From: an uncultured SAR86 cluster bacterium
Lineage (GTDB): Bacteria > Pseudomonadota > Gammaproteobacteria > Magnimaribacterales > D2472
Assembly: GCA_902520495.1 (NCBI GenBank)
Contig: CABYNW010000004.1
Span: forward strand, 40,995-104,994
Direction: 5' to 3'
Length of the DNA stretch: 64,000 bases
The notes under the pieces were generated by a model. The model did not search any database, was not told where the DNA came from, and saw only the letters and a program-made list of their open reading frames with translations. Shown here piece by piece: positions 9,248 to 30,895 of the stretch (positions are counted from its first letter, which is position 1; every line of letters starts with the position of its first letter). Both the position numbers and the translations under genes were made by a program.

Positions 9248-9651
9248 TGAAATTCATATCAAATGAAAAAAAATTATTTACTATTGAGATAACTCCTCTG
9301 ATAGATATTGTTTTTTTACTGGTTATATTTTTTGTCGTAACTTCGAAAGTAGGCGATTCACAATTTCTTTCACTTGACTTGCCTAAAACTGAATCATTCG
9401 AATATAAAACTGTCCAATCAATGAACGAGATTGTAATTATTAATAATGGAAGTATATATATTAATAATGATGTATTTAATATTGAGGATATAAATAATTT
9501 AGATCAGGCTATTTTTGAATTAGAAAATAACGGTAATTCAGTTATTTTAAGTGCTGAATCTGATAGCTTGCATATATGGATTATTACTGTGATGGATATA
9601 CTAAATAAGTATGGATTTAATGAAGTCCAAATAAGAACTATAGAAAAATGA
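9247..9651 (+). CDS. ExbD/TolR-family biopolymer transport protein
   Basis: 134 aa. Single N-terminal TM carrying the conserved Asp (ITPLIDIVFLLVIFF), followed by a periplasmic ExbD-type domain. 1-nt overlap with the ExbB-like gene. Confidence 0.8.
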   Translation: MKFISNEKKLFTIEITPLIDIVFLLVIFFVVTSKVGDSQFLSLDLPKTESFEYKTVQSMNEIVIINNGSIYINNDVFNIEDINNLDQAIFELENNGNSVILSAESDSLHIWIITVMDILNKYGFNEVQIRTIEK

Positions 9652-12407
9652 AATCTGGAAGTTTAAAAAGATTACTTGGGTATACTTTTAGATATAAATG
9701 GTCTTTTTTAATTAGTGTAATTGGTTTTATGAGTTTTGCTTTTGCAGATATTGCTGCTGTGGAGTGGATAAGAAGAATTATAGGCTATATAAATTCTGAA
9801 GAAGAAAATTTTAGTTCATTATTAGCACTATCTTTAATATTTATAGCACTAGGAAGGGGTATTGGATTCTTTATAGGTAATTATTTTATGTCTAAGGTTG
9901 GTTTTGGTATAGTTCATGATCTAAGAGAGGAGTTATTTCAAAAACTACATAACCTTCCAAAATCATATTTTGACTCTAATCAATCCGGTCAATTAATTAA
10001 TAGAATTACTTTTACGACGACACAAGTCTCTGGAGCTGCTTCAAATGCAGTTAAAACCCTTATAAGAGAAGGATTCCTTTTAATAGGATTATTCATTTAT
10101 CTAATAATTTTAAATTTTAAATTAACATTATTATTAATAGGCACCGCCCCTCTTATTGCTTTAATTGTTTATGTAGCAGGGAAGAGATTAAAAAAACTTG
10201 CAACAAAAATTCAAACAGCAATGGGAGATGTAACACATATAGCATCTGAAGCTGTCGATGGACATGTTGAAATTAAAAGTTTTAATGCTGAAGAATATGA
10301 AAATTCAAGATTCTTAGTCGCTAATGAATCAAATAGAAATCAAAATTTAAAATTAGAAGCAACTGGAAATATGGCAACCCCAATCATACAAGTTCTTGTT
10401 TCGATTTCTTTATCTATAGTTGCATATTTTGCATTAGGAGCTCAGTTAGGAATTTCATTAGATGCAGAAACATTTGTAGCTTTTTTTACAGCAGCAGGTC
10501 TAATGGCAAAACCAATTAGACAACTTTCAAATATAAACATGATTGTTCAAAAAGGTCTTGCAGCTGCAAATGAAATATTTGATCAGCTGGATCAAGATGT
10601 CGAGCATGATGATGGAACTAATGACAGCCCTATAGATGGGCATATTGAATTTAAAAATATAGATTTCTCATATGAAACAGGATCTCAAATCTTATCTAAT
10701 ATTAATTTTTCTATAAATAAGAATGAAACAGTGGCTATTGTTGGAAAATCAGGCTCAGGAAAATCCACTATAGCCAATCTGATACCAAGATTTTACAATC
10801 ACACTTCTGGAGAAATTTTAATTGATAATATTCCAGTATCTGAATTCTCATTACCCCATCTTAGATCCTCCATTTCTATAGTTAATCAATCACCGTCTTT
10901 ATTTAATGACACTATCGCTAAAAATATTGCATATGGTGATAAATCTATTGATGTAGATAAGTTAAAAGAATCAGCTAAGTTATCTGGATGTGATGAGTTT
11001 ATTTCAAATTTGCCAGAAGGATATGAGTCTGAAATTGGAGATGATGGTGTTCTTTTATCCGGCGGTCAGAGACAAAGATTGGCTATAGCAAGAGCATTTT
11101 ATAAAGACTCACCTATAATTATTTTAGATGAAGCTACATCATCACTCGATACAGAATCTGAACTGATTGTTCAAGAAGCCTTAGAAAAATTAATTACAAA
11201 TAGAACAACTATTGTTATTGCGCATAGGCTATCAACTATTGAAAATGCATCTAAAATTATTGTTCTAGATAAAGGTGAAATAATAGAATCAGGCAGTCAT
11301 GATGAATTAATTAATAATAAATCTGTATATCACTCTTTATATAAAAATAAATTTGAAGACTCACCAAAATCAAACTTACCCATATCTCAATCTACCCAAT
11401 TGTTTATGCCAGAATATGAAGACGAAGAGACCAGTAGTTTTGTTGTTGATAGTTGGTACAAAAAGAGTTTATGGCTGTACTTACTTTATCCATTTTCACT
11501 CATTTTTTCATATTTAACTAACAGAAGAAGAGGAAAATATCTAAAAAATAATATCAAATCATATAAATCAGAAGTACCAATAATCGTTGTAGGTAATCTT
11601 ACTATCGGCGGTACTGGAAAAACACCATTAGTAAAACACATTGCAAATGAGTTGATCAAGAGAGGATATAAGCCTGGTATAGTCAGTAGGGGATATGGAG
11701 GTAATTTTAAAGAAACACTTAAAGTTAATGAAGATACGCCAGTAAAAGAAACTGGTGATGAGGCACAAATTTTAGCTAAATTGAACATACCATTTTATAT
11801 TGACAAAAACAGAGTCAGAGCTGTAAAAACACTCACAAACAATCATAATTGTGATGTAATTATTTCAGATGATGGCCTACAACATTACCCATTGGCCAGA
11901 GATATAGAGATTGCAGTAATAGACGGCAAAAGAAGATTTGGTAATAATTTAACTTTTCCAGCTGGACCTTTAAGAGAATCTAAAAATAGATTAAAAACTG
12001 TTGATTTTGTAGTCAATAATAGCGGACCAACAGATGAAGATGAATATTTGATGAGCATCAGCCCATCTAATTTTATTCATTTAAAATCTGGTAAATCATA
12101 CTCAATTGATAATTGGCCTATGCATAAACAAGTGCATGCTGTGGCTGGATTAGGAAATCCTGGAAGGTTTTTTGATTTACTAGAAAAATTAGGTTTTGAT
12201 ATTATCAGACACCCATTTCCTGATCATCATAATTTCTTGTCTAGTGATATTTTTTATTTAGATCATTTGCCTATTGTTATGACTGAAAAGGATGCTTCGA
12301 AATGTAAAGATTTTGATAATAATAAAATATGGTATTTAACAATTGATGCAGATGTTAGCAATAAATTTATAGAAAAACTTGATAGAAAACTACAATCAAT
12401 CAATTGA
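9648..12407 (+). CDS. msbA-lpxK: fused lipid A export ABC transporter MsbA / tetraacyldisaccharide 4'-kinase LpxK
   Basis: One uninterrupted 919-aa frame. Residues 1-569 form a 6-TM ABC exporter plus NBD (GKSGSGKST, LSGGQRQR, IIILDEATSSLD) that ends like MsbA (YHSLYKNKF). Residues about 601-919 match LpxK from its own N-terminus: hydrophobic helix SLWLYLLYPFSLIFSYL, then the P-loop VPIIVVGNLTIGGTGKTP. An acidic/Ser/Pro linker is encoded at 11355-11447. Confidence 0.85.
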   Translation: MKSGSLKRLLGYTFRYKWSFLISVIGFMSFAFADIAAVEWIRRIIGYINSEEENFSSLLALSLIFIALGRGIGFFIGNYFMSKVGFGIVHDLREELFQKLHNLPKSYFDSNQSGQLINRITFTTTQVSGAASNAVKTLIREGFLLIGLFIYLIILNFKLTLLLIGTAPLIALIVYVAGKRLKKLATKIQTAMGDVTHIASEAVDGHVEIKSFNAEEYENSRFLVANESNRNQNLKLEATGNMATPIIQVLVSISLSIVAYFALGAQLGISLDAETFVAFFTAAGLMAKPIRQLSNINMIVQKGLAAANEIFDQLDQDVEHDDGTNDSPIDGHIEFKNIDFSYETGSQILSNINFSINKNETVAIVGKSGSGKSTIANLIPRFYNHTSGEILIDNIPVSEFSLPHLRSSISIVNQSPSLFNDTIAKNIAYGDKSIDVDKLKESAKLSGCDEFISNLPEGYESEIGDDGVLLSGGQRQRLAIARAFYKDSPIIILDEATSSLDTESELIVQEALEKLITNRTTIVIAHRLSTIENASKIIVLDKGEIIESGSHDELINNKSVYHSLYKNKFEDSPKSNLPISQSTQLFMPEYEDEETSSFVVDSWYKKSLWLYLLYPFSLIFSYLTNRRRGKYLKNNIKSYKSEVPIIVVGNLTIGGTGKTPLVKHIANELIKRGYKPGIVSRGYGGNFKETLKVNEDTPVKETGDEAQILAKLNIPFYIDKNRVRAVKTLTNNHNCDVIISDDGLQHYPLARDIEIAVIDGKRRFGNNLTFPAGPLRESKNRLKTVDFVVNNSGPTDEDEYLMSISPSNFIHLKSGKSYSIDNWPMHKQVHAVAGLGNPGRFFDLLEKLGFDIIRHPFPDHHNFLSSDIFYLDHLPIVMTEKDASKCKDFDNNKIWYLTIDADVSNKFIEKLDRKLQSIN

Positions 12408-20561: not shown

Positions 20562-21509
20562 TTGAACAATATCTTTATCAAAGAAAATGCTTTTAAGCTA
20601 ACCCTAATAGCGAGTATATTATTTTTAATTATTTTCTATGTCTTAAGTTACTTTCAATTAATACAATCAACTGATTCACTTGCTTTTATTGGCGAAGCAT
20701 CAAGATGGTGTGAACGAATAAGTGCCGGTGCTTTTAGAGAACCTGTGAATACATTAAGTAATTTAGGTTTTATGATTGCGGGATTATATATCTTATATAA
20801 ATTAACTAATGAGACGTCCTTTAATGAATTTTCGGGTCTTAACAAAATTACCATTCTATATGGCGTTGCTGTAGTTTATCTCGGTCCTGGATCTATGATG
20901 ATGCATGGAACTAATACTGAGTGGGGTGGTTGGGCTGATAATTTAAGCATGGTTATGTACATCATAATTCCATGGCTATATAACTGTTATAAAATGTCTA
21001 ACTGGTCTCAATCTACATTATTAAAAACTTACATAGCTATTGTAATTTCATATGCTGTATTAAGAGGACAATTTGGTTACGGTATGGGTATTGGTCTAGA
21101 TCTATTTGGAGTATCAATTGGTTTATGGGTTATATCAGAATTTTTATATAAATTTTGGTCACCTAGTATGAGATTTATATCAGGATTTGTTGGATTCTTG
21201 GTTTTAATGTTATTTGGAACTATGCCTATTGAGGTATTTGATAACATTAGTGAATATTGGTGGATTATTTTCTTTTGGTTGCCAGGTTTATTAGCATCAA
21301 AAAAACCAGAAGGTATTAGAACCTATAGATGGTATTTTGCTGGTATGGTGGCTTATATGAGTGCATTTGCTATATGGTTAACAGGTGTACCTGATAGTGA
21401 GACATGCAATCCAGATACAATTTTTCAAGCTCATGGGGCGTGGCACTTATTAACTGCACTATCTACAATTTTTTTCTTTTATCATTACAGATCTGAAAAA
21501 TTAATCTAA
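20562..21509 (+). CDS. alkaline-ceramidase-family (PF05875-like) 7-TM membrane protein
   Basis: 315 aa with a TTG start; the first in-frame ATG lies after the conserved N-terminal motif. Ceramidase-family landmarks: WCE...EPVNTLSNLGF, HGTNTEWGGWADNLSM, HGAWHLLTALS. Confidence 0.55.
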   Translation: MNNIFIKENAFKLTLIASILFLIIFYVLSYFQLIQSTDSLAFIGEASRWCERISAGAFREPVNTLSNLGFMIAGLYILYKLTNETSFNEFSGLNKITILYGVAVVYLGPGSMMMHGTNTEWGGWADNLSMVMYIIIPWLYNCYKMSNWSQSTLLKTYIAIVISYAVLRGQFGYGMGIGLDLFGVSIGLWVISEFLYKFWSPSMRFISGFVGFLVLMLFGTMPIEVFDNISEYWWIIFFWLPGLLASKKPEGIRTYRWYFAGMVAYMSAFAIWLTGVPDSETCNPDTIFQAHGAWHLLTALSTIFFFYHYRSEKLI

Positions 21510-22595
21510 TATCAACTCGCACCCAGTTCCAGATAAATATTCTTTAACATCTAACTTATCCTTATCCGACAAGTTATTAAATTCGTCCTTAATCCAATTT
21601 AAACATTTAGACTGATATGGAAATGTCTTCTGTTTCCATACTGAATCATCAAGTTCTATTTCCCAAGTATCAGAATTATTACCATATGCTTTATCGTTCT
21701 CAATTAGACAGGGGATATAAACCTTTCCAACTTCATTAAATATTGCTTTTAATGATTTAGGCAGTTGATCTAATTTATACCAACCATTTTCATTCTTATC
21801 AAAGCAATCAAGTTTTTCAGTATCATTGGATTCATTTGATATACCAAAAAATTCACCGATACTACCTTTATTATGAAGTCCTGATAAGTCACTCATAATA
21901 GTTACCCAAGATATGCATCTAGGAGATGATATGTATGCAATATTTCTTGGCGTTGGATCAAATCCAACAAGCTGTGTCAATTGACCATACAAACCAAAGT
22001 CAGATGATGAAGGCCTAAGACCAAACATATACGAGTTATTAGAAAAATGTTTTTCTAGCAGTTTTAAGAATCTTTTATAACTATCATCAATTAATTTCGC
22101 AGTATCGTTATTTGAACCTACTACCCATAATCTATTTATTTGTCTATCAGCTATGACATTTCCAAATTCTTTTAATTTATCATCGTCAATATCTAATTTA
22201 TGCTGAAGAACTAACATTTTTTTAGCATTTTCAGCATCTTCATCAAAGTGCCATCGATAATGAAACATATATTTAGTTACCCACTCATCAGCAAAATCTT
22301 CTAGCAAGTAATTTAAAAAGCTAACAGCAGGAGTATTAGGTATTACAGATTTATTATCATGTAATTCCTCTAAATATCTAATAATAGGAGTAGTATCTGT
22401 TCTAACTTCATAATCATTAAATACAATTGTAGGAAGTAAAACTGGTTTAGGTGGTTCTAGATTTAGAAGTGATAAATTATGAATCACATCTCCCCATGAA
22501 ACCGTATAAGGTATGTTTCGATATCTTAATAGAGCTAATATTTTCTGGGTATAAGGTGAGCCAACGTTTCCAAATACTTGAATCGGTTTTGGCAT
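21501..22595 (-). CDS. GST-like protein with extended C-terminal domain
   Basis: 364 aa. Thioredoxin-like GST N-domain (GSPYTQKILALLRYRNIPYTV ... TTPIIRYLEE) and a helical GST-C-like region, plus about 130 extra C-terminal residues of unknown family. Confidence 0.5.
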   Translation of the reverse strand: MPKPIQVFGNVGSPYTQKILALLRYRNIPYTVSWGDVIHNLSLLNLEPPKPVLLPTIVFNDYEVRTDTTPIIRYLEELHDNKSVIPNTPAVSFLNYLLEDFADEWVTKYMFHYRWHFDEDAENAKKMLVLQHKLDIDDDKLKEFGNVIADRQINRLWVVGSNNDTAKLIDDSYKRFLKLLEKHFSNNSYMFGLRPSSSDFGLYGQLTQLVGFDPTPRNIAYISSPRCISWVTIMSDLSGLHNKGSIGEFFGISNESNDTEKLDCFDKNENGWYKLDQLPKSLKAIFNEVGKVYIPCLIENDKAYGNNSDTWEIELDDSVWKQKTFPYQSKCLNWIKDEFNNLSDKDKLDVKEYLSGTGCELILD

Positions 22596-22598
22596 TAA

Positions 22599-23213
22599 TT
22601 ATTGCCCTAATTGGATTGCTTTTTTAAATGCTACTCTAGATTCTATATTTTCAACATATCTTTTTATATTAACCATGTCATCACTCACAGTTCCAAACCT
22701 ATTTGCCATATAACATGAATGTCCAAGCATACAATCGGCAGCTGAAAAATCACCAATTAAGTAATCTTTTCCTTCTAGATATTCATTAACTGGTTTCAGC
22801 GATTTTGAAAGTAGATTCATGGCCTGATTTAAAACTTTTTCATCGCGTCTGTCTTCTGGAAGAAGAATTGTTTGAACTACAATCTGATTCATTGGTGGCA
22901 TAACCATACCTTCACAATAATGAAACCATTGAAGATAATAGGGGTATTCATTAGAGTCTATAGCGGGTTTTAATCCTTTATCATCATATTTATCTAATAT
23001 ATATTGAATAATTGCACCAGATTCAAAAATGGAAACATCACCATCTTCAATTACAGGAACTCTTCCAAGCGAATGTCTTGCCCTATGCTCAGGTGATTTA
23101 AGTCCTTCTTTTGTAAAGGGTAATATTTCTAGGTCGTATTCAATATTTAATTCTTCAAGAAGCCATGCAACTCTTCCGGCTCTAGTGTTGGGTGTTAGAT
23201 AAAGTTTTATCAT
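22599..23213 (-). CDS. glutathione S-transferase
   Basis: 204 aa. Canonical GST N-domain (LGRVPVIEDGDVSIFESGAIIQYI) and C-domain. Confidence 0.8.
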   Translation of the reverse strand: MIKLYLTPNTRAGRVAWLLEELNIEYDLEILPFTKEGLKSPEHRARHSLGRVPVIEDGDVSIFESGAIIQYILDKYDDKGLKPAIDSNEYPYYLQWFHYCEGMVMPPMNQIVVQTILLPEDRRDEKVLNQAMNLLSKSLKPVNEYLEGKDYLIGDFSAADCMLGHSCYMANRFGTVSDDMVNIKRYVENIESRVAFKKAIQLGQ

Positions 23214-23222
23214 TATTTCTCC

Positions 23223-23906
23223 TTATTTTTTAACAATTTTGGATGAATTTTTTACAAATTCAGCTGCTTTATTTTTGTCTTTTAAAAGATTTTCAATTTT
23301 TACTGGAACTTTAATGCCTTCTTTCATGCCAGGCTTTTCATACATTTTATTTTTCCATCTATCTAAATTTTCTAAGCCATCAATTGAAACACCTGACCAT
23401 TTATGAGTTCTTACCCAACACCAATTAGCTATATCTGCAATAGAATATTCACCAGCTAACCACTCATGCTTCGAAAGGTGTTTATCTAAGACTTCGAATA
23501 GACGTCTACATTCATTTTGATAACGGTCTATAGCAGCTGGAATTTTTTCTGGAAAATATCTAAAAAAAACATTTGCTTGACCCATCATTGGGCCGATACC
23601 CCCCATTTGGAACATTAACCATTCAAGTACTTTGGCTTTTTTTAAGGAATCATTTGATATTAATTGACCAGTTTTTTCAGCAAGATATATCATGATTGCT
23701 CCTGATTCAAAGATATGCAAATTCTTATTAGATTTATCTATAATCGCGGGAATACGACCATTTGGACTAATTTTTAAAAAATTCGACTTGTGCTGATCAC
23801 CATTCATTAAATTTATTGTATGAACGTTATATGTTAAACCCATTGCCTCTAATGTACATGAGACCTTGTGACCATTTGGGGTCGGGGATGTATATAGTTC
23901 AATCAT
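23223..23906 (-). CDS. yfcG: Nu-class glutathione S-transferase, YfcG-like
   Basis: 227 aa. Close block-wise match to my recollection of E. coli YfcG ([58 protein letters not shown]). Confidence 0.7.
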
Positions 23907-24969
23907 ATTTATTTTTAATAAAATCTATTAGTACTTTAGATAATTCTTTTGGTTTAGTCCATTGAAAAAAATGACCACCACCTATATGTGGAGCTTTTAT
24001 GGCATTTGGTACCATTTTTAGCACATCTTTTTCCATATCATTGGTAACTGGATCATTTCCGGCAAAAACGCTTAAAAATGGTTTATTAGTTTTACTAAAG
24101 AATTCTCTTGCTTTTTTTTGAGCTTCTAATGATTGATCTGGAATAATAGGAACGTGACTTGGCATAGCTCTGCAGCCCATTTTGAAAGCAGGTGAGGGGA
24201 ATGGTGCCTCGTAAGCTTTCATTAAATGATTCATATAAGGTGATATTTTTGATAGGCCCAATATGTGTAATATATAATGATTTCTTATTTCATTTTTAGG
24301 CTTATATTCCATCATAGTTGAATTAAGCAGACCAACTGGTAAATTTTTTGAGTCCCAACAAAATTTTTGCCAATACATAAATTTCAATGCAGGATGAGTT
24401 TTACCAGAGTCCATTTTTCTTACTTCCCTTATCATCGTTAAAGGTGTAAGTCTTAGTTTACTTTTTCTAAATTCGTTAATTTCATCAATAACTTCTTTTG
24501 GTGTATTTGGCAAATATGGTAATCCAGTATTACCAATAGAGATTTTCATAAATCTATTAGGATGATCAGCAATCATTCTTAAACCTATTAGACCTCCCCA
24601 ATCCTGTCCAAAAAAAGTTAAATTTTCTAAATTATTTTTTACCATCCACTGATTCATCCAATCAACCTGATTTTGATAACTATAGTTCTCTCTTAAACTT
24701 GGTTTATCAGACTTGCCATAGCCAACCAAATCAGGTGCTATTACTCTAATACCAGCATCATTAAGAATTGGTATCATTTTTGAATACAAATAACTCCAAA
24801 CTGGTTGTCCGTGCATCGCAAGTAAAATAGGCCCATTTTTCGGACCCTCATCAATATGGTGAATTCTTAATTCAGTTCCGCTTTTATCTGATATATTTGT
24901 ATAAATTGGTCTAAATGGATAATTTTTAATGTTTTTAAAATATCTATCAGGTGTTCTTAGTACTTTCAT
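23899..24969 (-). CDS. haloalkane dehalogenase-like alpha/beta hydrolase (HLD-I/DhlA-like)
   Basis: 356 aa. Block-wise match to DhlA as I recall it: [43 protein letters not shown], nucleophile elbow GQDWGG (Asp-Trp), AYEAPFP, acid NDPV, His in GGGHFFQ. Confidence 0.75.
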
Positions 24970-25622
24970 TAAAAATCTTTAACAAGGCCATCTTTAGTTA
25001 ATTCCGCAATCAAATCTTCAAACGGATTATCTTGCCCAAAATAATATTTTTCCTTATAAACATTTAATGGCACTCCATGATGGCCTGCTTCTTTTTGGTC
25101 TAATTGATTCATTTCAATTTCTTCAATTAGATTTTTTTCATCATTTTTTATTGACTCTCTAACTTCATCTAAATCTTCTCCAAAATCAGCTAACAGAGCT
25201 TTTAATTTATCATCTGTATTCCAATTTTTTACACTCCATATTAAAGTCGATAATTCATATGCAAACTCTATACCTTTTCCTCTATTACACATAAGTTGAC
25301 CCATATGACATATATCAAAAATATAAGGTTGATTTTCTGAAATCTTACCAGTGATAATATTTTGATTTATAGGATCTGGTTTTATTGGTAATTTCAATGG
25401 GATATCCAACTTTTTTGCCTTTCTCTTAATATCCATCATTAACGTAGTAAAATAAAATAGATTTCTATCTTTAAAGAATTCAGGCAGCCTAATAGCAATT
25501 GGGTAAACAATTTTAAAATTTACATCCAATTTATATTTATTCTTAAGCTTTAACATTCTTGGCAATATTAAATATGAATATGGACTACGATAAGAAAAAT
25601 ATAAATCAATCATGTCACTCAC
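24969..25622 (-). CDS. DsbA-fold 2-hydroxychromene-2-carboxylate isomerase / kappa-class GST-like protein
   Basis: 217 aa. The N-terminal DLYFSYRSPYSYL motif has Ser in place of CxxC, as in HCCA isomerase and GST-kappa. C-terminal HGVP block. Confidence 0.65.
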   Translation of the reverse strand: MSDMIDLYFSYRSPYSYLILPRMLKLKNKYKLDVNFKIVYPIAIRLPEFFKDRNLFYFTTLMMDIKRKAKKLDIPLKLPIKPDPINQNIITGKISENQPYIFDICHMGQLMCNRGKGIEFAYELSTLIWSVKNWNTDDKLKALLADFGEDLDEVRESIKNDEKNLIEEIEMNQLDQKEAGHHGVPLNVYKEKYYFGQDNPFEDLIAELTKDGLVKDF

Positions 25623-26073
25623 TCCCTTTTTTTAATGACAAATAAAACATTAACATAAAGTATATTAGTATTGGTATATTACCAATTACACCAGGAGGTG
25701 TGTTTATATAGTAATCATCCGTTAAAGGGTGAAGTGAACCTGAAATTAATCTAAAACAATGATCTAAGAGACATATCATATATATTAGTGGTACTAGGTT
25801 TTTATATTTAATAAATAAAATTAATAATATTAATGTCAATGATACTTGTGTTGCTCCCCAAAGCGATGCAAATAAATAAACTAGGTTATTCGGATCTATA
25901 GTATCTATAATTGGTAGTTCTTTTATTGTTGCAATTCCAACAAGACCAGCATTTTCTGAAAGGAAATGTACAAGTGATCTGAATATGTATAAAGCAAAAA
26001 TAGGATAAAGACCATATATCGCTATTTTTGAGCCTTTATATTCATGATTTAATTTATTGGGTAATAATGTCAT
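25615..26073 (-). CDS. hypothetical 4-TM membrane protein
   Basis: 152 aa with about 4 hydrophobic segments. I do not recognise the family. It overlaps both neighbours (8 nt and 1 nt), which supports a real coding gene. Confidence 0.5.
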   Translation of the reverse strand: MTLLPNKLNHEYKGSKIAIYGLYPIFALYIFRSLVHFLSENAGLVGIATIKELPIIDTIDPNNLVYLFASLWGATQVSLTLILLILFIKYKNLVPLIYMICLLDHCFRLISGSLHPLTDDYYINTPPGVIGNIPILIYFMLMFYLSLKKGSE

Positions 26074-27125
26074 TAATTTATTTTATCAATAACAATTTTA
26101 TTATTATTAATTGGCATAGTAACTCTTGTTCCATCATCTGAAAGACTATAGTCTTCAAATATATTCTCAATGGGTCTAAAAAAGACTCTTTCCATTAAAG
26201 TATTTCGAGGTGTTGGTATGGAGTGATAAATGAGTAAATGTTTTACATTGGCATCTCTAGCAATTTCACCTGCTTCTCTTATGCTTGTGTGATAATCCTG
26301 AATATCAAACAGTATTTTGTCCATTTGAGGTATCGGAGCAAGACCTCGCATTCGTTCAACAATATCTATTGATATAGCAGAATGTATTAATAGATCAACA
26401 TCTTTTGAATATTTTTGAACACTTCCATCATGAATAGTGTCTCCACTTATAACCACCGTTCTTCCCTTATAGGATATCTTAAAACCGAAGGCTGAATTTA
26501 CAGGATGGTGATCAACTACAAACGGTAAAATTTCTAATCCTGGAGTATTAGTGGGAATTAATTGATTATCTATAATTTGGATTGCATTAAATCCTGCAAT
26601 ACTCATAGGTAACATATCATCACCATGATGTTCATTTCTATACTGATAATCTGCTGAGTATGCTAGCTCAAATCCCTTAGTAACAAGATTTATTCCCTCT
26701 GGACCATAAACTTGCAATGGTGAAGTTCTTCCTTGAATCCATGACTGAAGGTGAGCATCTGGTAAATCTGCCATATGATCTGAGTGCATATGTGTTATCA
26801 AGACTGCTTTTACACTAGGCCATGGCAATTGATATTGAGTAAGGTTATCAACACTTCCATTACCAAGATCAAAAATATATATATCATCACCAGCTTCTAC
26901 AAGGACACAAGATTCTGCTCGCCCAGGAGAAGGAAGAGGGGATCTTGAGCCACAAATAACAACTTTTAATGAATCTTCTTTATCTAAAAAAGGCTCTGCG
27001 TTAGATATTATATTTTGTAAACCAATATTTAAGATTCTGTCTTGTACTGAATGAGAGTTTAATGATACAAGGGCAATAATTAATATTGAGATCAAACAAC
27101 TTAATAATATTAATAATTTTTTCAT
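26073..27125 (-). CDS. MBL-fold metallo-hydrolase with N-terminal signal/anchor
   Basis: 350 aa. N-terminal hydrophobic segment MKKLLILLSCLISILIIALV. Metallo-beta-lactamase motif ITHMHSDHMADL. RNase Z-like overall layout. Confidence 0.75.
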   Translation of the reverse strand: MKKLLILLSCLISILIIALVSLNSHSVQDRILNIGLQNIISNAEPFLDKEDSLKVVICGSRSPLPSPGRAESCVLVEAGDDIYIFDLGNGSVDNLTQYQLPWPSVKAVLITHMHSDHMADLPDAHLQSWIQGRTSPLQVYGPEGINLVTKGFELAYSADYQYRNEHHGDDMLPMSIAGFNAIQIIDNQLIPTNTPGLEILPFVVDHHPVNSAFGFKISYKGRTVVISGDTIHDGSVQKYSKDVDLLIHSAISIDIVERMRGLAPIPQMDKILFDIQDYHTSIREAGEIARDANVKHLLIYHSIPTPRNTLMERVFFRPIENIFEDYSLSDDGTRVTMPINNNKIVIDKIN

Positions 27126-27135
27126 AATAATTTAA

Positions 27136-27543
27136 TTAAATAGTTTCTATGTTCAACTGTCCTTCTAATCCAGCATCTCTATGAACATGAATCTTTTGAT
27201 ATTCAGGATCCATCGTCATATCTAACATTGCTTTTCTATTAGGATACTTAGCAATTGCAACAGAATCCCATAATTCCTCAACTTCACCCAACATTAACCT
27301 ACTAACTTTACCAGCAAAAACAAACTCACCACCATATTTTTCTACTAACTTCACTACCTCTGCTGCATAGAGACCATAAGCCTCTTCTCCTGAAAGATTT
27401 GTATTTCGACCATCATCATAAATAGCCTTATCTTTATATTTAAGTAAATTTACCATTGATATTGGTCCAATTTCAGGATTCTCTAAAAAACCATTAATTT
27501 GATCTTCATCAGGCGTAACTTTATTTTCAAATTTCATATTCAA
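27136..27543 (-). CDS. DUF1330 domain-containing protein
   Basis: 135 aa. The dimeric alpha/beta-barrel-type DUF1330 pattern (MVNLLKYKD ... WDSVAIAKYPNRKAMLDM) matches my recollection of the family. First gene of the minus-strand operon. Confidence 0.7.
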   Translation of the reverse strand: MNMKFENKVTPDEDQINGFLENPEIGPISMVNLLKYKDKAIYDDGRNTNLSGEEAYGLYAAEVVKLVEKYGGEFVFAGKVSRLMLGEVEELWDSVAIAKYPNRKAMLDMTMDPEYQKIHVHRDAGLEGQLNIETI

Positions 27544-27720
27544 TAGTCCTTTGACATATATTGCATCAATGTATTATCTTTTATTATATTACTCGAGAAT
27601 ATTGATGAATAAAGTTTTTTCAATTTTATTTTTTTTAAATTATATGTAATGCTTTATTGAGTGGTTAACTTTAATCTTATTTAATATAATAGATTAAATT
27701 TATTTCTTTTATATATAAAT

Positions 27721-28356
27721 ATGCGTTTAGTTGTAGAGCCTTTTCTAGAAAATAAATCAAACCTAACGGGTTTTATGAAACATCTTGATGCCGATGGTGC
27801 TAACGGTTGGGGAAAGTGGCCTTTTTTAATGTTTATAGGCGATGAGGATCTCTGGTTTCAACTTCAACTTTTTTCACGTAATGAAAAAATTTCGATTTTA
27901 TGGGTTTCAGGACCCAATCCTCCTAACATGGGTTGGAACGATCTAGCAGTGTCATATGTAACAAATTTATATGAAGAAGGTCGAAATGATGAGGGAATAG
28001 GTGGTGCTGATCCAAACATGTTTACATCTCTTCATGATCTCCTTCCACATATTGGAAACAACACAAATCCAGATTTTGATGAGCTTAAAGGAATCCAATA
28101 TATTCATCCTAATATTTTCTTTACTGCTTTACAGGAACTTCAAGAAGTATCTGGTGGTGCCTATAAAATTAGAGATGGGGAAGGTATGGTTTTTGATACT
28201 AATGGTGCTGGTGCTTTCATCGTTAATCCAGTCATGGCAGGTGCTTATGAAGATCTAGAAACTGATCAAGAAAAGTTATCATTCCTTGAAGAAACATTTA
28301 ATCTTATGCGTTCTGAGCTAGAGAGAGATTTTTATTTGTGTTATTTAGTCGAATAA
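27721..28356 (+). CDS. hypothetical protein (soluble, no recognised family)
   Basis: 211-aa ORF with no signal peptide or TM. First gene of a tightly spaced plus-strand unit. I recognise no motif. Confidence 0.5.
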   Translation: MRLVVEPFLENKSNLTGFMKHLDADGANGWGKWPFLMFIGDEDLWFQLQLFSRNEKISILWVSGPNPPNMGWNDLAVSYVTNLYEEGRNDEGIGGADPNMFTSLHDLLPHIGNNTNPDFDELKGIQYIHPNIFFTALQELQEVSGGAYKIRDGEGMVFDTNGAGAFIVNPVMAGAYEDLETDQEKLSFLEETFNLMRSELERDFYLCYLVE

Positions 28357-28369
28357 ATACCTTTATTTA

Positions 28370-29293
28370 ATGAATAGAGTTACTCAACATACAGGGTCAA
28401 AATATCCAATTATTCAAGCTCCAATGGGTTGGATTGCAAGAAGTCAACTTGCATCAGCAGTTTGTGAAGCTGGAGGAATGGGAATAATAGAAACTTCATC
28501 TGGTGAAATTGATAATTGTAAAAAAGAAATTCGAATGATGTCAGAGTTAACCAATAAACCCTTCGGCGTCAATTTACCATTACTCTTTCTTAAAGATGAC
28601 TCGATGGTTAAATTTTGTGTAGAGTCAGGAGTTAAATTTGTAACAACTTCTGCAGGCGATCCTACTAAATATGTTGGTGTTTTAAAAGATGCTGGTATAA
28701 CTGTTTATCATGCAGTTCCTAGTTTAGAGGGCGCTCTAAAGGCAGCAAAAGCTGGTGTAGATGGGTTAGTAGTTGAAGGAACTGAAGGAGGGGGTTTTAA
28801 AAGTCCTGTTGAAGTAGGTTTATTGGTATTGATTCAATCTATTAGACAAAATACCAACTTACCAATTATTGCAGCTGGTGGCATAGCTGATGGAACAGGA
28901 ATGGCTGCTGTTTTTGCAGCAGGAGCTGAGGGTATTCAAATGGGAACAAGATTTGTGTCAAGCATAGAAAGTCCCGTTCATCAAAACTTTAAAAACAAAA
29001 TTGTAGATTCAGGTATAGATGGGACACTAATTCTTAATAAGTCTTCAAAACCGGTGATAAGAGCACTTAAATCAAATTTAACTAATGATATTGATAACAA
29101 GGGTCAAATGGATATGACAGCAATGATGAATATAAAAAATCTTTATTTTGATGGTGACATGGAAGCTGCACCAGCTCTTTCAGGTCAATCAACTGGACTT
29201 ATTAATGAGATTAAATCAGTAAAACAAATCATTGATGAGGTTGTTCATGAATTTAATAATATTTGTAAATCAATGGGGACCTTAAAACTTTAA
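28370..29293 (+). CDS. nitronate monooxygenase (NMO/2-nitropropane dioxygenase, FabK-like) family protein
   Basis: 307 aa. FMN TIM-barrel NMO blocks: YPIIQAPMGWIA, VVEGTEGGGF, IIAAGGIADG, GIQMGTRF. Confidence 0.8.
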   Translation: MNRVTQHTGSKYPIIQAPMGWIARSQLASAVCEAGGMGIIETSSGEIDNCKKEIRMMSELTNKPFGVNLPLLFLKDDSMVKFCVESGVKFVTTSAGDPTKYVGVLKDAGITVYHAVPSLEGALKAAKAGVDGLVVEGTEGGGFKSPVEVGLLVLIQSIRQNTNLPIIAAGGIADGTGMAAVFAAGAEGIQMGTRFVSSIESPVHQNFKNKIVDSGIDGTLILNKSSKPVIRALKSNLTNDIDNKGQMDMTAMMNIKNLYFDGDMEAAPALSGQSTGLINEIKSVKQIIDEVVHEFNNICKSMGTLKL

Positions 29294-30175: not shown

Positions 30176-30895
30176 ATGTTAAATAATACTGTGATTGCAA
30201 TGTGGTCAGGCCCTAGAAATCTTTCTACGGCTTTAATGAGAAGTTTTGGAAATCGTTCTGATGTTACTAACATTTTAGATGAACCATTTTATGCATCATA
30301 TTTAGTATCTACTAATAAAGATCATCCTATGAAAAAAGAAGTCATACATAGTCAATTAAACAATATTGATGATGTAAAAAAACAATGTCAAAGAAGAAAT
30401 AATGGTATTACTTATCAAAAACATATGACACATCATATAATTGATAATGATTTTTCTTGGATGGACTCAATAACAAATTGTTTTTTAATTAGAAACCCTG
30501 AAATGGTTGTTCACAGCTTTATGAAGTCATGGAGTGAAGGTGAATTTGAAGACATCGGATTCCAAAAACAATTTGATATTTATAATTACGTTAAAAAAAA
30601 TATAAACGATAATCCGCCAATTATTGATGCATCAAGACTAAGATCTAATCCTGAACAAGTTTTATCTAAGTTTTGTAAAATTATAGATATAGAATGGGAC
30701 AATAATATGCTTGAGTGGTCAGCTGGATTAAAGGACTATGATGGAATATGGGCAAAACATTGGTATCCATCTGTCATGAATTCAACATCATTTAAACCAG
30801 AAACTAATAATTCTATAAAATTGTCAGATAATGAAAAAAGAATAGTTGAATTAGCTATGCCTATATATGAAGAACTATATAAAAGGGCTATCTAA
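30176..30895 (+). CDS. sulfotransferase-fold-like protein (tentative)
   Basis: 239 aa. The N-terminal MWSGPRNLSTALMRSF resembles a PAPS-binding P-loop-like motif of a small bacterial sulfotransferase-like family. Assignment is from memory and tentative. The start directly abuts the aminotransferase stop. Confidence 0.4.
   Translation: MLNNTVIAMWSGPRNLSTALMRSFGNRSDVTNILDEPFYASYLVSTNKDHPMKKEVIHSQLNNIDDVKKQCQRRNNGITYQKHMTHHIIDNDFSWMDSITNCFLIRNPEMVVHSFMKSWSEGEFEDIGFQKQFDIYNYVKKNINDNPPIIDASRLRSNPEQVLSKFCKIIDIEWDNNMLEWSAGLKDYDGIWAKHWYPSVMNSTSFKPETNNSIKLSDNEKRIVELAMPIYEELYKRAI

What the first reader, a model, noticed from the sequence alone, without database searches (positions are those of the whole stretch)
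21501..27543. Eight-gene overlapping operon combining four GST-type proteins, a haloalkane-dehalogenase-like hydrolase, an anchored MBL hydrolase, a 4-TM protein and DUF1330
The minus-strand order is DUF1330, MBL (signal/anchor), 4-TM unknown, kappa-GST/HCCA-isomerase-like, DhlA-like hydrolase, YfcG-like Nu-GST, GST, and a 364-aa GST-like protein. The junctions are +10, -1, -8, -1, -8, +9 and +3 nt, which implies one translationally coupled unit. No regulator or transporter gene is included. This concentration of glutathione-dependent and hydrolytic dehalogenation/electrophile-detoxification chemistry in a minimal genome suggests a dedicated pathway. One candidate is turnover of natural marine organohalogens or reactive electrophiles. 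I cannot match it to a described pathway.
Basis: partly seen in the sequence, partly recalled or inferred. Interest (0 to 1): 0.6.

Follow-up and report, generated by a model that had tools for sequence, protein, structure and literature searches.

The report
SAR86 dehalogenase–glutathione transferase gene module
An abundant ocean bacterium (SAR86) keeps a haloalkane-dehalogenase gene tied to several glutathione transferases and three proteins of unknown function across its whole lineage, which marks an undescribed but testable pathway for halogenated or similar reactive compounds.

Summary
Eight minus-strand ORFs lie at 27543..21501 with junctions +10, -1, -8, -1, -8, +9 and +3, and all eight family calls hold. 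The window comes from a SAR86 genome.

The junction argument is weak, because 73% of same-strand junctions in the window are 10 nt or shorter.

The real support is comparative:
- 24 close SAR86 species keep the full order and the same flanks.
- 56 more distant SAR86 species have unrelated flanks and at least five rearranged layouts. Even so, the dehalogenase shares a same-strand run with DUF1330 in 49 of 56, the orphan 4-TM protein in 39, the 364-aa GST in 34 and the Nu/204-aa GSTs in 32.
- Those relatives often add a DUF2855 protein, an anchored sulfatase, an SDR, an NMO-family oxidoreductase and a nearby TetR regulator.

The hydrolase passes NCBIfam's haloalkane-dehalogenase cutoff. It keeps the HLD-I pentad (D123, H333, D306, W124, W200), but its cap is about 50 aa longer. 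The 4-TM protein has no fold match.

The substrate and pathway are inferred, not shown. No paper found describes the module. Verdict: a real, conserved, undescribed variant of a detoxification or catabolic cluster, of moderate interest.

The parts
27544..27720 (.). 177-nt AT-rich divergent intergenic region upstream of g1. It is the presumed promoter and 5' leader of the eight-gene run.
   Evidence: It is the only intergenic gap longer than 10 nt bordering the run. Positions 27548-27648 are 86-92% identical to seven relatives, against about 79% over the coding DNA. Part of that conservation reflects the 5' end of a paralogous dehalogenase gene present in those relatives. The promoter scan is uninformative in this AT-rich DNA.
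27136..27543 (-). g1: DUF1330 protein, 135 aa from TTG 27543 or 133 aa from ATG 27537. It is soluble and its function is unknown. It is the most faithful partner of the dehalogenase.
   Evidence: Pfam PF07045 scores 37.2 bits against a cutoff of 23. It matches structural-genomics protein RPA0582 (3dca) at E 2e-20. It shares a same-strand run with the dehalogenase in 19 of 24 close and 49 of 56 distant loci. No function is reported in the literature.
26073..27125 (-). g2: metallo-beta-lactamase-fold hydrolase, 350 aa, with one N-terminal hydrophobic anchor or signal. The catalytic domain is probably periplasm-facing.
   Evidence: Pfam Lactamase_B and Lactamase_B_2. H112-x-H-x-D-H117 plus H206, D229, H248, H279 and H301 are conserved in at least 95% of 52 orthologues, and 50 of 52 have a hydrophobic N-terminus. 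The hydrophobic segment spans residues 1-28. The closest solved structures are PNGM-1 (E 7e-22) and an MBL-fold entry named 'Arysulfatase', 8gyg (E 5e-18). RNase Z and GntH scores are far below their cutoffs.
25615..26073 (-). g3: orphan membrane protein of 152 aa with four helices and many invariant polar residues (R32, H36, E40, Y66, S70, W72, Q76, Y90, R108, Y121).
   Evidence: No Pfam, NCBIfam or PHROG family. AlphaFold2 gives pLDDT 75.6 with four long helices. Foldseek against PDB gives a best E of 1.8. The family has 706 clusters at 50% identity, almost all stand-alone proteins of 150-160 aa. It shares the dehalogenase run in 21 of 24 close and 39 of 56 distant loci.
24969..25622 (-). 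g4: DsbA-like thioredoxin-fold protein of the kappa-GST / 2-hydroxychromene-2-carboxylate-isomerase type, 217 aa. An alternative start is ATG 25613.
   Evidence: Pfam DSBA scores 43.3 bits against a cutoff of 25.6. The N-terminal YFSYRSPYSY aligns to YFDFLSPFSY of HCCA isomerase 2imd at E 0.003, and there is no CxxC. It is linked in 23 of 24 close but only 1 of 56 distant loci.
23899..24969 (-). g5: haloalkane dehalogenase of subfamily HLD-I, 356 aa and cytosolic, with a cap domain about 50 aa longer than usual. It is the anchor gene of the module.
   Evidence: NCBIfam NF002043 scores 317 bits against a cutoff of 265. The closest solved structures are three entries named haloalkane dehalogenase, 6f9o, 5esr and 4mj3 (E 6e-71 to 6e-68), with only the core aligned (residues 1-152 and 243-352). 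D123, W124, H333 and D306 are invariant in 79 sequences, W200 is present in 76 of 79, and Gln55 replaces DhlA Glu56.
23223..23906 (-). g6: Nu-class (YfcG/YghU-like) glutathione transferase, 227 aa.
   Evidence: GST_N and GST_C domains. E 6e-84 to 6tum, 6tah and 4eci, and 1e-51 to E. coli YfcG. PRK13972 scores 188 bits, below the equivalog cutoff of 332. It is 70-75% identical in distant SAR86 loci, where it still follows the dehalogenase gene.
22599..23213 (-). g7: canonical soluble glutathione transferase, 204 aa, of no assigned class.
   Evidence: GST_N and GST_C domains. The best solved relative is 4hz4, an uncharacterised glutathione transferase (E 1e-21), followed by other entries named only glutathione transferase, including phi-class ones. 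The clustering merges g6 and g7 into one family, and at least one member shares the dehalogenase run in 32 of 56 distant loci.
21501..22595 (-). g8: 364-aa extended glutathione-transferase-fold protein with a conserved S13-P-Y-T N-terminal motif, an invariant EDFxDEW..K.MFHYRW motif and a C-terminal extension of about 100 aa.
   Evidence: Only GST_N_3 and GST_N_2 are found by Pfam. There is a weak NCBIfam hit to the isoprene-epoxide GST IsoI (31.7 bits, cutoff 300). The AlphaFold2 model has pLDDT 70. Foldseek matches the full GST fold, with top hits 4kf9 and the styrene-pathway GST StyI, 9qd3 (TM 0.72-0.74 on the target). It shares the run in 24 of 24 close and 34 of 56 distant loci, and lies within 8 kb in 40 of 56.

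Best explanation
This is the SAR86A-type version of a gene module found across the SAR86 lineage and built around an HLD-I haloalkane dehalogenase.

Shown:
- The eight genes are intact, tightly packed and on one strand behind a single intergenic region.
- The dehalogenase keeps the complete catalytic and halide-binding pentad.
- Across 80 SAR86 species the dehalogenase gene stays physically linked to DUF1330, the orphan 4-TM protein, the 364-aa GST, the Nu/204-aa GST pair and, less strictly, the anchored MBL hydrolase. This holds while the surrounding genes and the internal order change.

Inferred:
- The genes are co-transcribed and act on one class of substrates, namely hydrophobic molecules that carry good leaving groups. 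These would be alkyl halides first, and perhaps epoxides and sulfate esters.
- The proposed order of events starts at the envelope, where the anchored MBL-fold hydrolase acts. In other SAR86 lineages an anchored sulfatase, and sometimes an anchored second dehalogenase, would act there too.
- The 4-TM protein then handles the lipophilic intermediate in the membrane.
- In the cytosol the dehalogenase replaces halide with hydroxyl through an Asp123 alkyl-enzyme intermediate.
- The four glutathione-dependent proteins then trap or rearrange the reactive products, such as haloaldehydes, haloacids, epoxides or disulfides.
- DUF1330 is an obligatory but biochemically unknown partner of the dehalogenase.
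For: - ORFs and junctions.
- Family membership.
- Dehalogenase above the curated cutoff, with D123, H333, D306, W124 and W200 conserved.
- Organism is SAR86, and 80 species-level loci hold an orthologue at 64-84% identity.
- Full order and flanks kept in 24 close loci.
- In 56 distant loci the window's flanking genes (ceramidase-family, ETF) occur 0 times. In the same loci the same-strand run with the dehalogenase holds DUF1330 in 49, TM in 39, G364 in 34, GSTs in 32, NMO in 26 and MBL in 19. At least five different gene orders are seen.
- Outer flanks in those loci are unrelated to one another (AstB, SSF symporter, SHMT, HhH-GPD).
- Extra recurrent members fit a leaving-group and redox theme (anchored formylglycine-type sulfatase, DUF2855, SDR, NMO), and a TetR regulator is associated.
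- The MBL's second-closest solved relative is an MBL-fold entry named 'Arysulfatase'.
- The nearest characterised relatives of G364, by profile and independently by fold, are the epoxide-opening GSTs IsoI and StyI.
- Compartment assignment from hydrophobicity.
- SAR86 is reported to have an unusually high GST copy number and to import glutathione: PMC11582366, PMC3358033.
- Hydrolytic haloalkane-type dehalogenases dominate dehalogenation gene potential in ocean metagenomes: PMC12660952.
Against: - No transcript, protein or activity data were available.
- Tight junctions are the genome norm, so co-transcription is only presumed.
- The promoter and terminator scans are uninformative.
- The cap domain, which sets substrate range, does not align to any characterised dehalogenase and is about 50 aa longer.
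- Gln replaces the conserved Glu56 of DhlA.
- The DhlA sequence used for residue mapping was recalled from memory.
- GSTs are multi-copy in SAR86, so some GST linkage could be incidental.
- DSBA and MBL are only loosely linked outside the SAR86A type.
- The cluster has no haloacid dehalogenase, alcohol or aldehyde dehydrogenase, or monooxygenase, so no complete catabolic route can be drawn.
- The roles given to DUF1330, the TM protein and the MBL are guesses.
Confidence: 0.5

Rival explanations
1. Incidental neighbours. These are unrelated housekeeping or stress genes (several of SAR86's many GSTs, a hydrolase, an MBL) packed together by genome streamlining. Their shared order reflects common descent only, and there is no common pathway.
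For: - 73% of same-strand junctions in the window are 10 nt or shorter.
- GSTs are high-copy in SAR86 (PMC11582366).
- The DSBA-like gene is linked in only 1 of 56 distant loci and the MBL in 19 of 56.
- g6 is a highly conserved Nu-class GST (E 6e-84 to solved structures 6tum and 4eci), which could suit a general housekeeping role.
Against: - In the 56 distant loci the original flanks are lost completely (0 of 56).
- The order has been reshuffled into at least five architectures, yet DUF1330 (49 of 56), TM (39 of 56) and G364 (34 of 56) stay in the dehalogenase's same-strand run.
- Passive inheritance of synteny would have decayed together with the flanks.
Confidence: 0.15
2. A real module, but not for organohalogens. 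It would process lipid-derived epoxides, peroxidation products or sulfated lipids. The dehalogenase-fold enzyme would act as an epoxide or ester hydrolase with a remodelled cap, and the GSTs would open epoxides or reduce disulfides.
For: - The nearest characterised relatives of G364 are the epoxide-conjugating GSTs IsoI and StyI.
- Anchored sulfatases, SDR, NMO and DUF2855 oxidoreductases join the module in other SAR86 lineages.
- The MBL resembles an MBL-fold entry named 'Arysulfatase'.
- The cap is unalignable and about 50 aa longer, and Glu56 is replaced by Gln.
- SAR86 is described as a lipid specialist (PMC3358033).
Against: - Both halide-stabilising tryptophans (W124, W200) and the Asp-His-Asp triad are conserved across 76-79 of 79 orthologues.
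- The protein passes the curated haloalkane-dehalogenase cutoff.
- From general knowledge of the fold, epoxide hydrolases use two tyrosines in the cap rather than a Trp pair.
Confidence: 0.2
3. An organosulfur or glutathione-salvage module. SAR86 cannot reduce sulfate and imports glutathione. The GSTs and hydrolases would release cysteine or glutathione from conjugates and mixed disulfides in dissolved organic matter.
For: - SAR86 lacks assimilatory sulfate reduction and has glutathione transporters and gamma-glutamyl transferases (PMC3358033; PMC11582366).
- From general knowledge, Nu-class GSTs are disulfide-bond reductases.
Against: - It does not explain the invariant pairing with a dehalogenase that keeps a halide-binding site.
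- No gamma-glutamyl transferase, peptidase or transporter is in the module.
Confidence: 0.07

Closest known systems
HLD-I haloalkane dehalogenases (DhlA; solved structures 6f9o, 5esr, 4mj3, 2xt0)
   Same: - Alpha/beta-hydrolase core that aligns closely to 6f9o over residues 1-152.
- Asp nucleophile in a QDWGG elbow, with a His base and an Asp acid.
- A Trp beside the nucleophile and a Trp in the cap.
- Score above the NCBIfam NF002043 cutoff.
   Different: - The cap domain is about 50 aa longer and does not align to any solved member.
- Gln replaces the Glu of the HGEP motif.
- The gene is embedded in a conserved multi-gene module with GSTs and DUF1330, which I did not find described for any characterised member.
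gamma-Hexachlorocyclohexane (lin) pathway: LinB dehalogenase plus LinD glutathione-dependent reductive dechlorinase
   Same: It combines a hydrolytic haloalkane dehalogenase with glutathione-transferase-fold enzymes for organohalide breakdown (general knowledge of the pathway).
   Different: - LinB belongs to HLD-II, whereas g5 belongs to HLD-I.
- There is no LinA dehydrochlorinase, LinC dehydrogenase or LinE ring-cleavage dioxygenase here.
- The lin genes are dispersed and associated with insertion sequences, not arranged as one compact run.
Glutathione-dependent epoxide pathways of isoprene and styrene degraders (IsoGHIJ, StyGHIJ)
   Same: - Two or more GSTs lie in one cluster.
- The nearest characterised relatives of g8 are IsoI (profile hit) and StyI (fold hit).
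- An SDR accompanies the module in other SAR86 lineages.
   Different: - There is no epoxide-forming monooxygenase and no CoA-transferase.
- The IsoI score is 31.7 bits against a cutoff of 300, so g8 is not an IsoI equivalog.
- g8 carries an extra C-terminal part of about 100 aa.
Xanthobacter 1,2-dichloroethane route (DhlA, alcohol and aldehyde dehydrogenases, DhlB)
   Same: It starts with an HLD-I dehalogenase.
   Different: The module has no haloacid dehalogenase and no alcohol or aldehyde dehydrogenase. Glutathione-dependent enzymes take their place.
Nu-class GSTs YfcG/YghU and kappa-class GST / HCCA isomerase
   Same: - g6 is very close to solved Nu-class structures.
- g4 has the DsbA-like fold signature and the Ser-Pro-aromatic-Ser-Tyr motif of kappa GSTs and HCCA isomerases.
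   Different: - g6 falls below the YfcG and YghU equivalog cutoffs.
- g4 matches HCCA isomerase only weakly (E 0.003, N-terminal 83 residues), and no naphthalene-pathway genes are present.

Membership tests
Haloalkane dehalogenase, subfamily HLD-I (g5) | Score above the curated family cutoff on an alpha/beta-hydrolase core | tested here: met
   NF002043 scores 317.3 bits against a cutoff of 265, and Pfam Abhydrolase_1 scores 73 bits.
Haloalkane dehalogenase, subfamily HLD-I (g5) | Catalytic triad of Asp nucleophile, His base and Asp acid (the HLD-I arrangement) | tested here: met
   D123 (QDWGG), H333 (GGHF) and D306 (NDPVT) are invariant in 79 SAR86 sequences. They align to the same motifs in 6f9o and 5esr and in DhlA. 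The DhlA sequence was recalled from memory.
Haloalkane dehalogenase, subfamily HLD-I (g5) | Two halide-stabilising tryptophans, one next to the nucleophile and one in the cap | tested here: met
   W124 is invariant. W200 is present in 76 of 79 sequences and aligns with DhlA W175. The cap alignment is less certain because of the extra 50 aa or so.
Haloalkane dehalogenase, subfamily HLD-I (g5) | Hydrolytic halide release from haloalkanes | not testable with these tools
   This needs a purified enzyme and a halide-release assay.
Nu-class GST, YfcG equivalog (g6) | Score above the equivalog cutoff | tested here: not met
   PRK13972 scores 188 bits against 332, and PRK11752 scores 176 against 325. 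It is a Nu-class relative (E 6e-84 to 6tum and 4eci) but not the YfcG or YghU equivalog.
Canonical soluble GST (g6, g7) | Thioredoxin-like N domain plus helical C domain | tested here: met
   GST_N and GST_C are both above their cutoffs. Full-length matches to solved GSTs are found.
GST fold (g8, 364 aa) | Both GST domains present | tested here: met
   Pfam finds only the N domain. The AlphaFold2 model (pLDDT 70) matches whole GST chains, with 229 PDB hits at E 0.001 or below. The top hits are 4kf9 and StyI 9qd3, over about 250 aligned columns. The model is of moderate quality.
Isoprene-epoxide GST IsoI (g8) | Score above the equivalog cutoff | tested here: not met
   NF049950 scores 31.7 bits against a cutoff of 300. 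IsoI is the nearest characterised relative only.
Kappa GST / 2-hydroxychromene-2-carboxylate isomerase (g4) | DsbA-like domain with an N-terminal catalytic Ser motif (S-P-aromatic-S-Y) in place of CxxC | tested here: met
   Pfam DSBA scores 43.3 bits against 25.6. YFSYRSPYSY aligns with YFDFLSPFSY of 2imd, and no CxxC is present.
Kappa GST / 2-hydroxychromene-2-carboxylate isomerase (g4) | Full-length similarity to a characterised member | tested here: inconclusive
   The only match is E 0.003 over residues 4-86 to 2imd.
Metallo-beta-lactamase fold hydrolase (g2) | HxHxDH and the downstream His/Asp metal ligands | tested here: met
   H112-M-H-S-D-H117, H206, D229, H248, H279 and H301 are conserved in at least 95% of 52 orthologues.
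RNase Z / GntH / PhnP (g2) | Score above the equivalog cutoff | tested here: not met
   GntH scores 140 against 333, RNase Z scores 132 against 363, and PhnP scores 21 against 272.
MAPEG membrane GST (g3), considered because it is a 4-TM protein of about 150 aa in a GST cluster | Sequence or fold similarity to MAPEG proteins | tested here: not met
   There is no Pfam hit. Foldseek of the model against PDB gives a best E of 1.8 and no MAPEG entry among the top 50.
Operon (single transcription unit) | Same strand, short or overlapping junctions, and a single upstream intergenic region | tested here: met
   The spacing is not distinctive in this genome, because 73% of junctions are 10 nt or shorter.
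Operon (single transcription unit) | One transcript spanning all genes | not testable with these tools
   No transcript data were available. The promoter and terminator scans are at background level.
Conserved functional gene module | Linkage retained after loss of flanking synteny and after internal rearrangement | tested here: met
   56 distant loci have 0 of 56 original flanks. The same-strand run still holds DUF1330 in 49, TM in 39, G364 in 34 and GSTs in 32, in at least five orders.
lin / dhl organohalide pathways | Presence of the partner enzymes (LinA, LinC, LinE; DhlB, alcohol and aldehyde dehydrogenases) | tested here: not met
   None of these families is found among the eight genes or among the recurrent extra members.

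The most novel reading that the evidence does not exclude
[quoted passage not shown] It may carry, lineage-wide, a previously unrecognised pathway for natural organohalogens, such as bromo- and chloro-alkanes or halogenated and sulfated algal lipids. In this reading a long-capped HLD-I dehalogenase works with three new accessory proteins: DUF1330, an orphan 4-TM protein family and a 364-aa GST. That would make SAR86 a major biological sink in the marine halocarbon cycle and would give DUF1330 its first function.
Probability: 0.25. Interest if true: 0.75.

Novelty: new variant of a known kind. Interest (0 to 1): 0.5.

Why it matters
- Hydrolytic haloalkane-type dehalogenase genes are reported to dominate the ocean's dehalogenation gene potential (PMC12660952). 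The paper's main text does not mention SAR86 or describe the genomic context of these genes.
- This work ties such a gene to SAR86 and shows that it travels with a fixed set of partner genes, three of which have no known function.
- The two SAR86 papers read here note many GSTs, 'nitropropane dioxygenases' and 'beta-lactamases' as oddities (PMC3358033, PMC11582366). Several of those oddities turn out to be members of one module.
- A SAR86 isolate now exists (PMC11582366), so the hypothesis can be tested directly. If it is confirmed, it would name an organism and a pathway for turnover of natural halocarbons in surface seawater.
- If it is not confirmed, the module is still a defined target for assigning functions to DUF1330 and the orphan membrane protein.

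Tried and rejected
- Exact-sequence lookup of the dehalogenase in public assemblies found nothing.
- The promoter and terminator scan of 20-29 kb gave counts at or below the shuffle expectation, so it is uninformative.
- Rfam over the whole window gave no match, and there are no tRNAs.
- I tested whether the 4-TM protein is a MAPEG-type membrane GST. There is no Pfam hit, and the AlphaFold2 model has no significant PDB fold match, so I rejected the idea.
- I looked for informative domain fusions of the 4-TM family with a profile search of 1.84 billion representatives. Almost all hits are stand-alone. One 225-aa protein (P0461) joins a sulfatase N-terminus to the family's C-terminal half, which is probably a gene-calling or frameshift artefact and was not relied on.
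I rebuilt the alignments from database hits instead.
- Mapping to the lin, dhl and iso/sty pathways failed because the partner enzymes are absent.
- I considered a mobile-island origin. The GC content of the region (0.30-0.33) matches the rest of the window, and the module is chromosomal in all relatives, so I rejected it.
- Several loci are labelled Woeseia, Marinovum, Chloroflexi or PS1. Their GC of 33-47% and SAR86-like gene content suggest mis-binning or mislabelling rather than true occurrence outside SAR86-like lineages.
- PHROG and PDB searches of the orphan 211-aa neighbour found nothing.
- Literature searches pairing SAR86 with haloalkane dehalogenase, dehalogenase or GST, and a search for DUF1330, found no description of this module and no function for DUF1330.

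Full report
**1. The observation**

The ORF listing returns eight minus-strand ORFs at exactly the reported coordinates. Their junctions are +10, -1, -8, -1, -8, +9 and +3 nt. The region's GC content of 0.30-0.33 matches the rest of the window.

Two start codons are ambiguous. g1 may start at ATG 27537 rather than TTG 27543. g4 may start at ATG 25613, which has a GGGAG 7-8 nt upstream, rather than GTG 25622. These choices change two junctions by a few bases and nothing else.

**2. Gene identities**

| Gene | Coordinates | Identity | Key evidence |
|---|---|---|---|
| g1 | 27136-27543 | DUF1330 | Closest solved structure is the uncharacterised RPA0582, E 2e-20 |
| g2 | 26073-27125 | MBL-fold hydrolase | Conserved HxHxDH set and one N-terminal hydrophobic segment |
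| g3 | 25615-26073 | Orphan membrane protein | No family; four hydrophobic helices |
| g4 | 24969-25622 | DsbA-like | Kappa-GST / HCCA-isomerase Ser motif, no CxxC |
| g5 | 23899-24969 | Haloalkane dehalogenase | NF002043, 317 bits against a cutoff of 265 |
| g6 | 23223-23906 | Nu-class GST | E 6e-84 to 6tum and 4eci, but below the YfcG and YghU equivalog cutoffs |
| g7 | 22599-23213 | Generic GST | Best solved relative 4hz4 |
| g8 | 21501-22595 | Extended GST | GST N domain by sequence; full GST fold plus a C-terminal extension of about 100 aa by modelling |

For g2, the nearest solved relatives are PNGM-1 and an MBL-fold entry named 'Arysulfatase'. The RNase Z and GntH cutoffs are not reached.

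For g8, the model has pLDDT 70. The nearest characterised relatives are the epoxide-opening GSTs IsoI (weak profile hit) and StyI (fold hit).

**3. The dehalogenase**

The core, residues 1-152 and 243-352, aligns closely to three solved structures named haloalkane dehalogenase, 6f9o, 5esr and 4mj3.

I aligned 79 SAR86 sequences with DhlA, whose sequence I recalled from memory. D123, W124, D306 and H333 are invariant, and W200, which aligns with DhlA W175, is present in 76 of 79. This is the full HLD-I pentad.

Two features differ from characterised members. Gln55 replaces Glu56 of DhlA. The cap is about 50 aa longer and cannot be aligned to solved members. Dehalogenase chemistry is therefore well supported, but substrate range cannot be read from homology.

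**4. Organism and comparative test**

The scan of one genome per species returned 80 loci with orthologues at 64-84% identity. Nearly all are SAR86 single-cell or metagenome-assembled genomes, including the named SAR86A, SAR86B and SAR86E assemblies. A few loci carry other labels, but their GC of 33-47% and SAR86-like gene content point to labelling or binning problems.

I called ORFs in all loci, clustered them, and asked which families share a same-strand run with the dehalogenase.

- In 24 close loci (dehalogenase at least 75% identical), the full eight-gene order and the window's flanks are kept. Those flanks are a ceramidase-family gene and ETF alpha and beta.
- In 56 distant loci (64-70% identical), those flanks are never present (0 of 56).
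- The new flanks in the distant loci are unrelated to one another: AstB/AstD, a sodium:solute symporter, SHMT and HhH-GPD.
- Gene order in the distant loci falls into at least five architectures.

Despite this, the dehalogenase run in the 56 distant loci still contains:

| Family | Loci of 56 |
|---|---|
| DUF1330 | 49 |
| 4-TM protein | 39 |
| 364-aa GST | 34 (40 within 8 kb) |
| Nu/204-aa GSTs | 32 |
| NMO-family gene | 26 |
| MBL | 19 (26 within 8 kb) |
| DsbA-like gene | 1 |

Ranked by the number of loci in which they occur near the dehalogenase, the top families are exactly the operon's members. Linkage that survives loss of flanks and reshuffling is the classical sign of functional coupling.

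**5. What the junctions do and do not show**

Of 45 same-strand junctions in the window, 73% are 10 nt or shorter and the median is 1 nt. The tight packing is consistent with co-transcription, but it is a general property of this streamlined genome and not a special property of this run. The promoter and terminator scans are at background level, and Rfam finds nothing.

**6. The wider module**

In other SAR86 lineages the run is longer. A typical form is:

TetR(divergent) - NMO - G364 - dehalogenase - Nu GST - GST - DUF1330 (x1-2) - 4-TM - DUF2855 - membrane-anchored formylglycine-type sulfatase - 125-aa membrane protein - MBL - SDR.

A TetR-family gene lies directly upstream on the same strand in 6 of 24 close relatives. 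The absence of a regulator is therefore a feature of this genome only.

In 9 of 24 close relatives, a second dehalogenase with an N-terminal membrane anchor (357-376 aa in eight of them; a shorter 277-aa call in L011) is transcribed divergently from the same intergenic region. In the window that slot holds an orphan 211-aa ORF with no detectable relatives. The first 100 nt or so upstream of g1 are still 86-92% identical to those relatives.

**7. The unknowns**

The 4-TM protein has many invariant polar residues. Its model has pLDDT 76 and no fold match in the PDB, so it is not a MAPEG-type membrane GST.

A profile search of 1.84 billion representatives finds 706 clusters, almost all stand-alone proteins of 150-160 aa and none with a Pfam domain. 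The single exception is a probably artefactual sulfatase chimera.

DUF1330 has no reported function.

**8. Mechanism**

Shown:
- The genes are intact and conserved.
- The dehalogenase has a complete catalytic site.
- Linkage is retained across the lineage.
- Hydrophobicity gives a compartment pattern: anchored MBL, membrane protein and soluble remainder.

Inferred: the module is one transcription unit that processes hydrophobic electrophiles carrying good leaving groups.

- Envelope-facing hydrolases act first.
- The membrane protein handles the lipophilic intermediate.
- The cytosolic dehalogenase replaces halide by hydroxyl through an Asp123 ester intermediate.
- The glutathione-dependent proteins deal with reactive products or parallel substrates.
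- DUF1330 is an obligatory partner of unknown chemistry.

I give this reading 0.5. The rivals are incidental neighbours (0.15), a real module for non-halogen electrophiles or sulfated lipids (0.2), and glutathione or sulfur salvage (0.07).

**9. Comparison with what is known**

The cluster is not the lin, dhl or iso/sty pathway, because the partner enzymes are missing and the equivalog cutoffs for IsoI, YfcG and RNase Z are not met.

- The founding SAR86 genome paper does not mention dehalogenases or sulfatases. It does flag glutathione import, 'nitropropane dioxygenases' and an excess of 'beta-lactamases' (PMC3358033).
- The isolate paper notes a high GST copy number and says nothing of dehalogenases (PMC11582366).
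- A 2025 ocean survey finds haloalkane-type hydrolytic dehalogenases dominant, but its main text does not mention SAR86, and none of its three mentions of 'gene cluster' that were shown concerns dehalogenase gene context (PMC12660952).

Within the searchable literature the module is undescribed.

**10. Verdict**

This is a real, lineage-wide, undescribed arrangement made of mostly known enzyme families plus three unknowns. I rate it a new variant of a known kind (detoxification or catabolic gene cluster), with interest 0.5.

It is testable now that a SAR86 isolate exists. The most novel reading not excluded is that SAR86 is a major sink for natural marine halocarbons through a new pathway. I give that reading a probability of about 0.25.

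Noticed in passing
window 27721-28356 (+): A 211-aa ORF is transcribed divergently from the operon. It has no Pfam, NCBIfam, PHROG or PDB match and no homologue in any of the 80 SAR86 loci. It occupies the slot where 9 of 24 close relatives carry a membrane-anchored second haloalkane dehalogenase. This looks like a variable slot beside a conserved module.
   Followed up: partly
L003:6242-7366 (-), and equivalents in L004, L005, L011-L014, L021, L022: A second HLD-I paralogue (357-376 aa in eight of the nine loci) has an N-terminal transmembrane anchor (MNKVFSILFFILIIFIGLF...) and HGEP and HDWGG motifs. That would put a dehalogenase domain outside the cytoplasm, which is unusual for this family.
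   Followed up: partly
L014:6858-7433 (+), and cluster 11 in 24 loci: A TetR-family regulator is associated with the module. It lies directly upstream on the same strand in 6 close relatives and divergent or nearby in 18 distant ones. It is absent from this window.
   Followed up: partly
L064:13795-19764 (+) and similar loci: In other SAR86 lineages the module also holds DUF2855, a membrane-anchored formylglycine-type sulfatase, a 125-aa membrane protein, an SDR and an NMO-family oxidoreductase. Together with the window's MBL, whose second-closest solved relative is an entry named 'Arysulfatase', this hints at sulfate-ester chemistry alongside dehalogenation.
   Followed up: partly
window 9648-12407 (+): A 919-aa ORF fuses an MsbA-type ABC exporter (ABC_membrane plus ABC_tran) to the lipid A 4'-kinase LpxK.
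   Followed up: no
window 60665-62167 (-): A 500-aa glyceraldehyde-3-phosphate dehydrogenase in which the Gp_dh_N domain starts only at residue 149. It therefore has an N-terminal extension of about 150 aa with no assigned family, unless the start codon is called too far upstream.
   Followed up: no
window 20562-21509 (+): A ceramidase-family membrane protein converges on g8 and overlaps its 3' end by 9 nt. This neighbour is kept in 23 of 24 close relatives and in none of the 56 distant ones.
   Followed up: partly
whole window: Gene packing is extreme. 73% of same-strand junctions are 10 nt or shorter, the median is 1 nt, and many genes overlap by 1, 4 or 8 nt. Operon inference from spacing alone is unreliable in this genome.
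   Followed up: yes
window 28370-29293 (+) and 30176-30895 (+): An NMO-family ('nitropropane dioxygenase') gene lies just upstream of the module on the other strand. In 26 of 56 distant SAR86 loci its orthologue sits inside the dehalogenase's same-strand run. A Sulfotransfer_5 gene lies two genes further on.
   Followed up: partly
protein P0461: A 225-aa database protein joins a sulfatase N-terminus (residues 64-126) to the C-terminal half of the 4-TM family. It is probably a frameshift or gene-calling artefact. It nevertheless agrees with the adjacency of TM and sulfatase genes seen in many loci.
   Followed up: no
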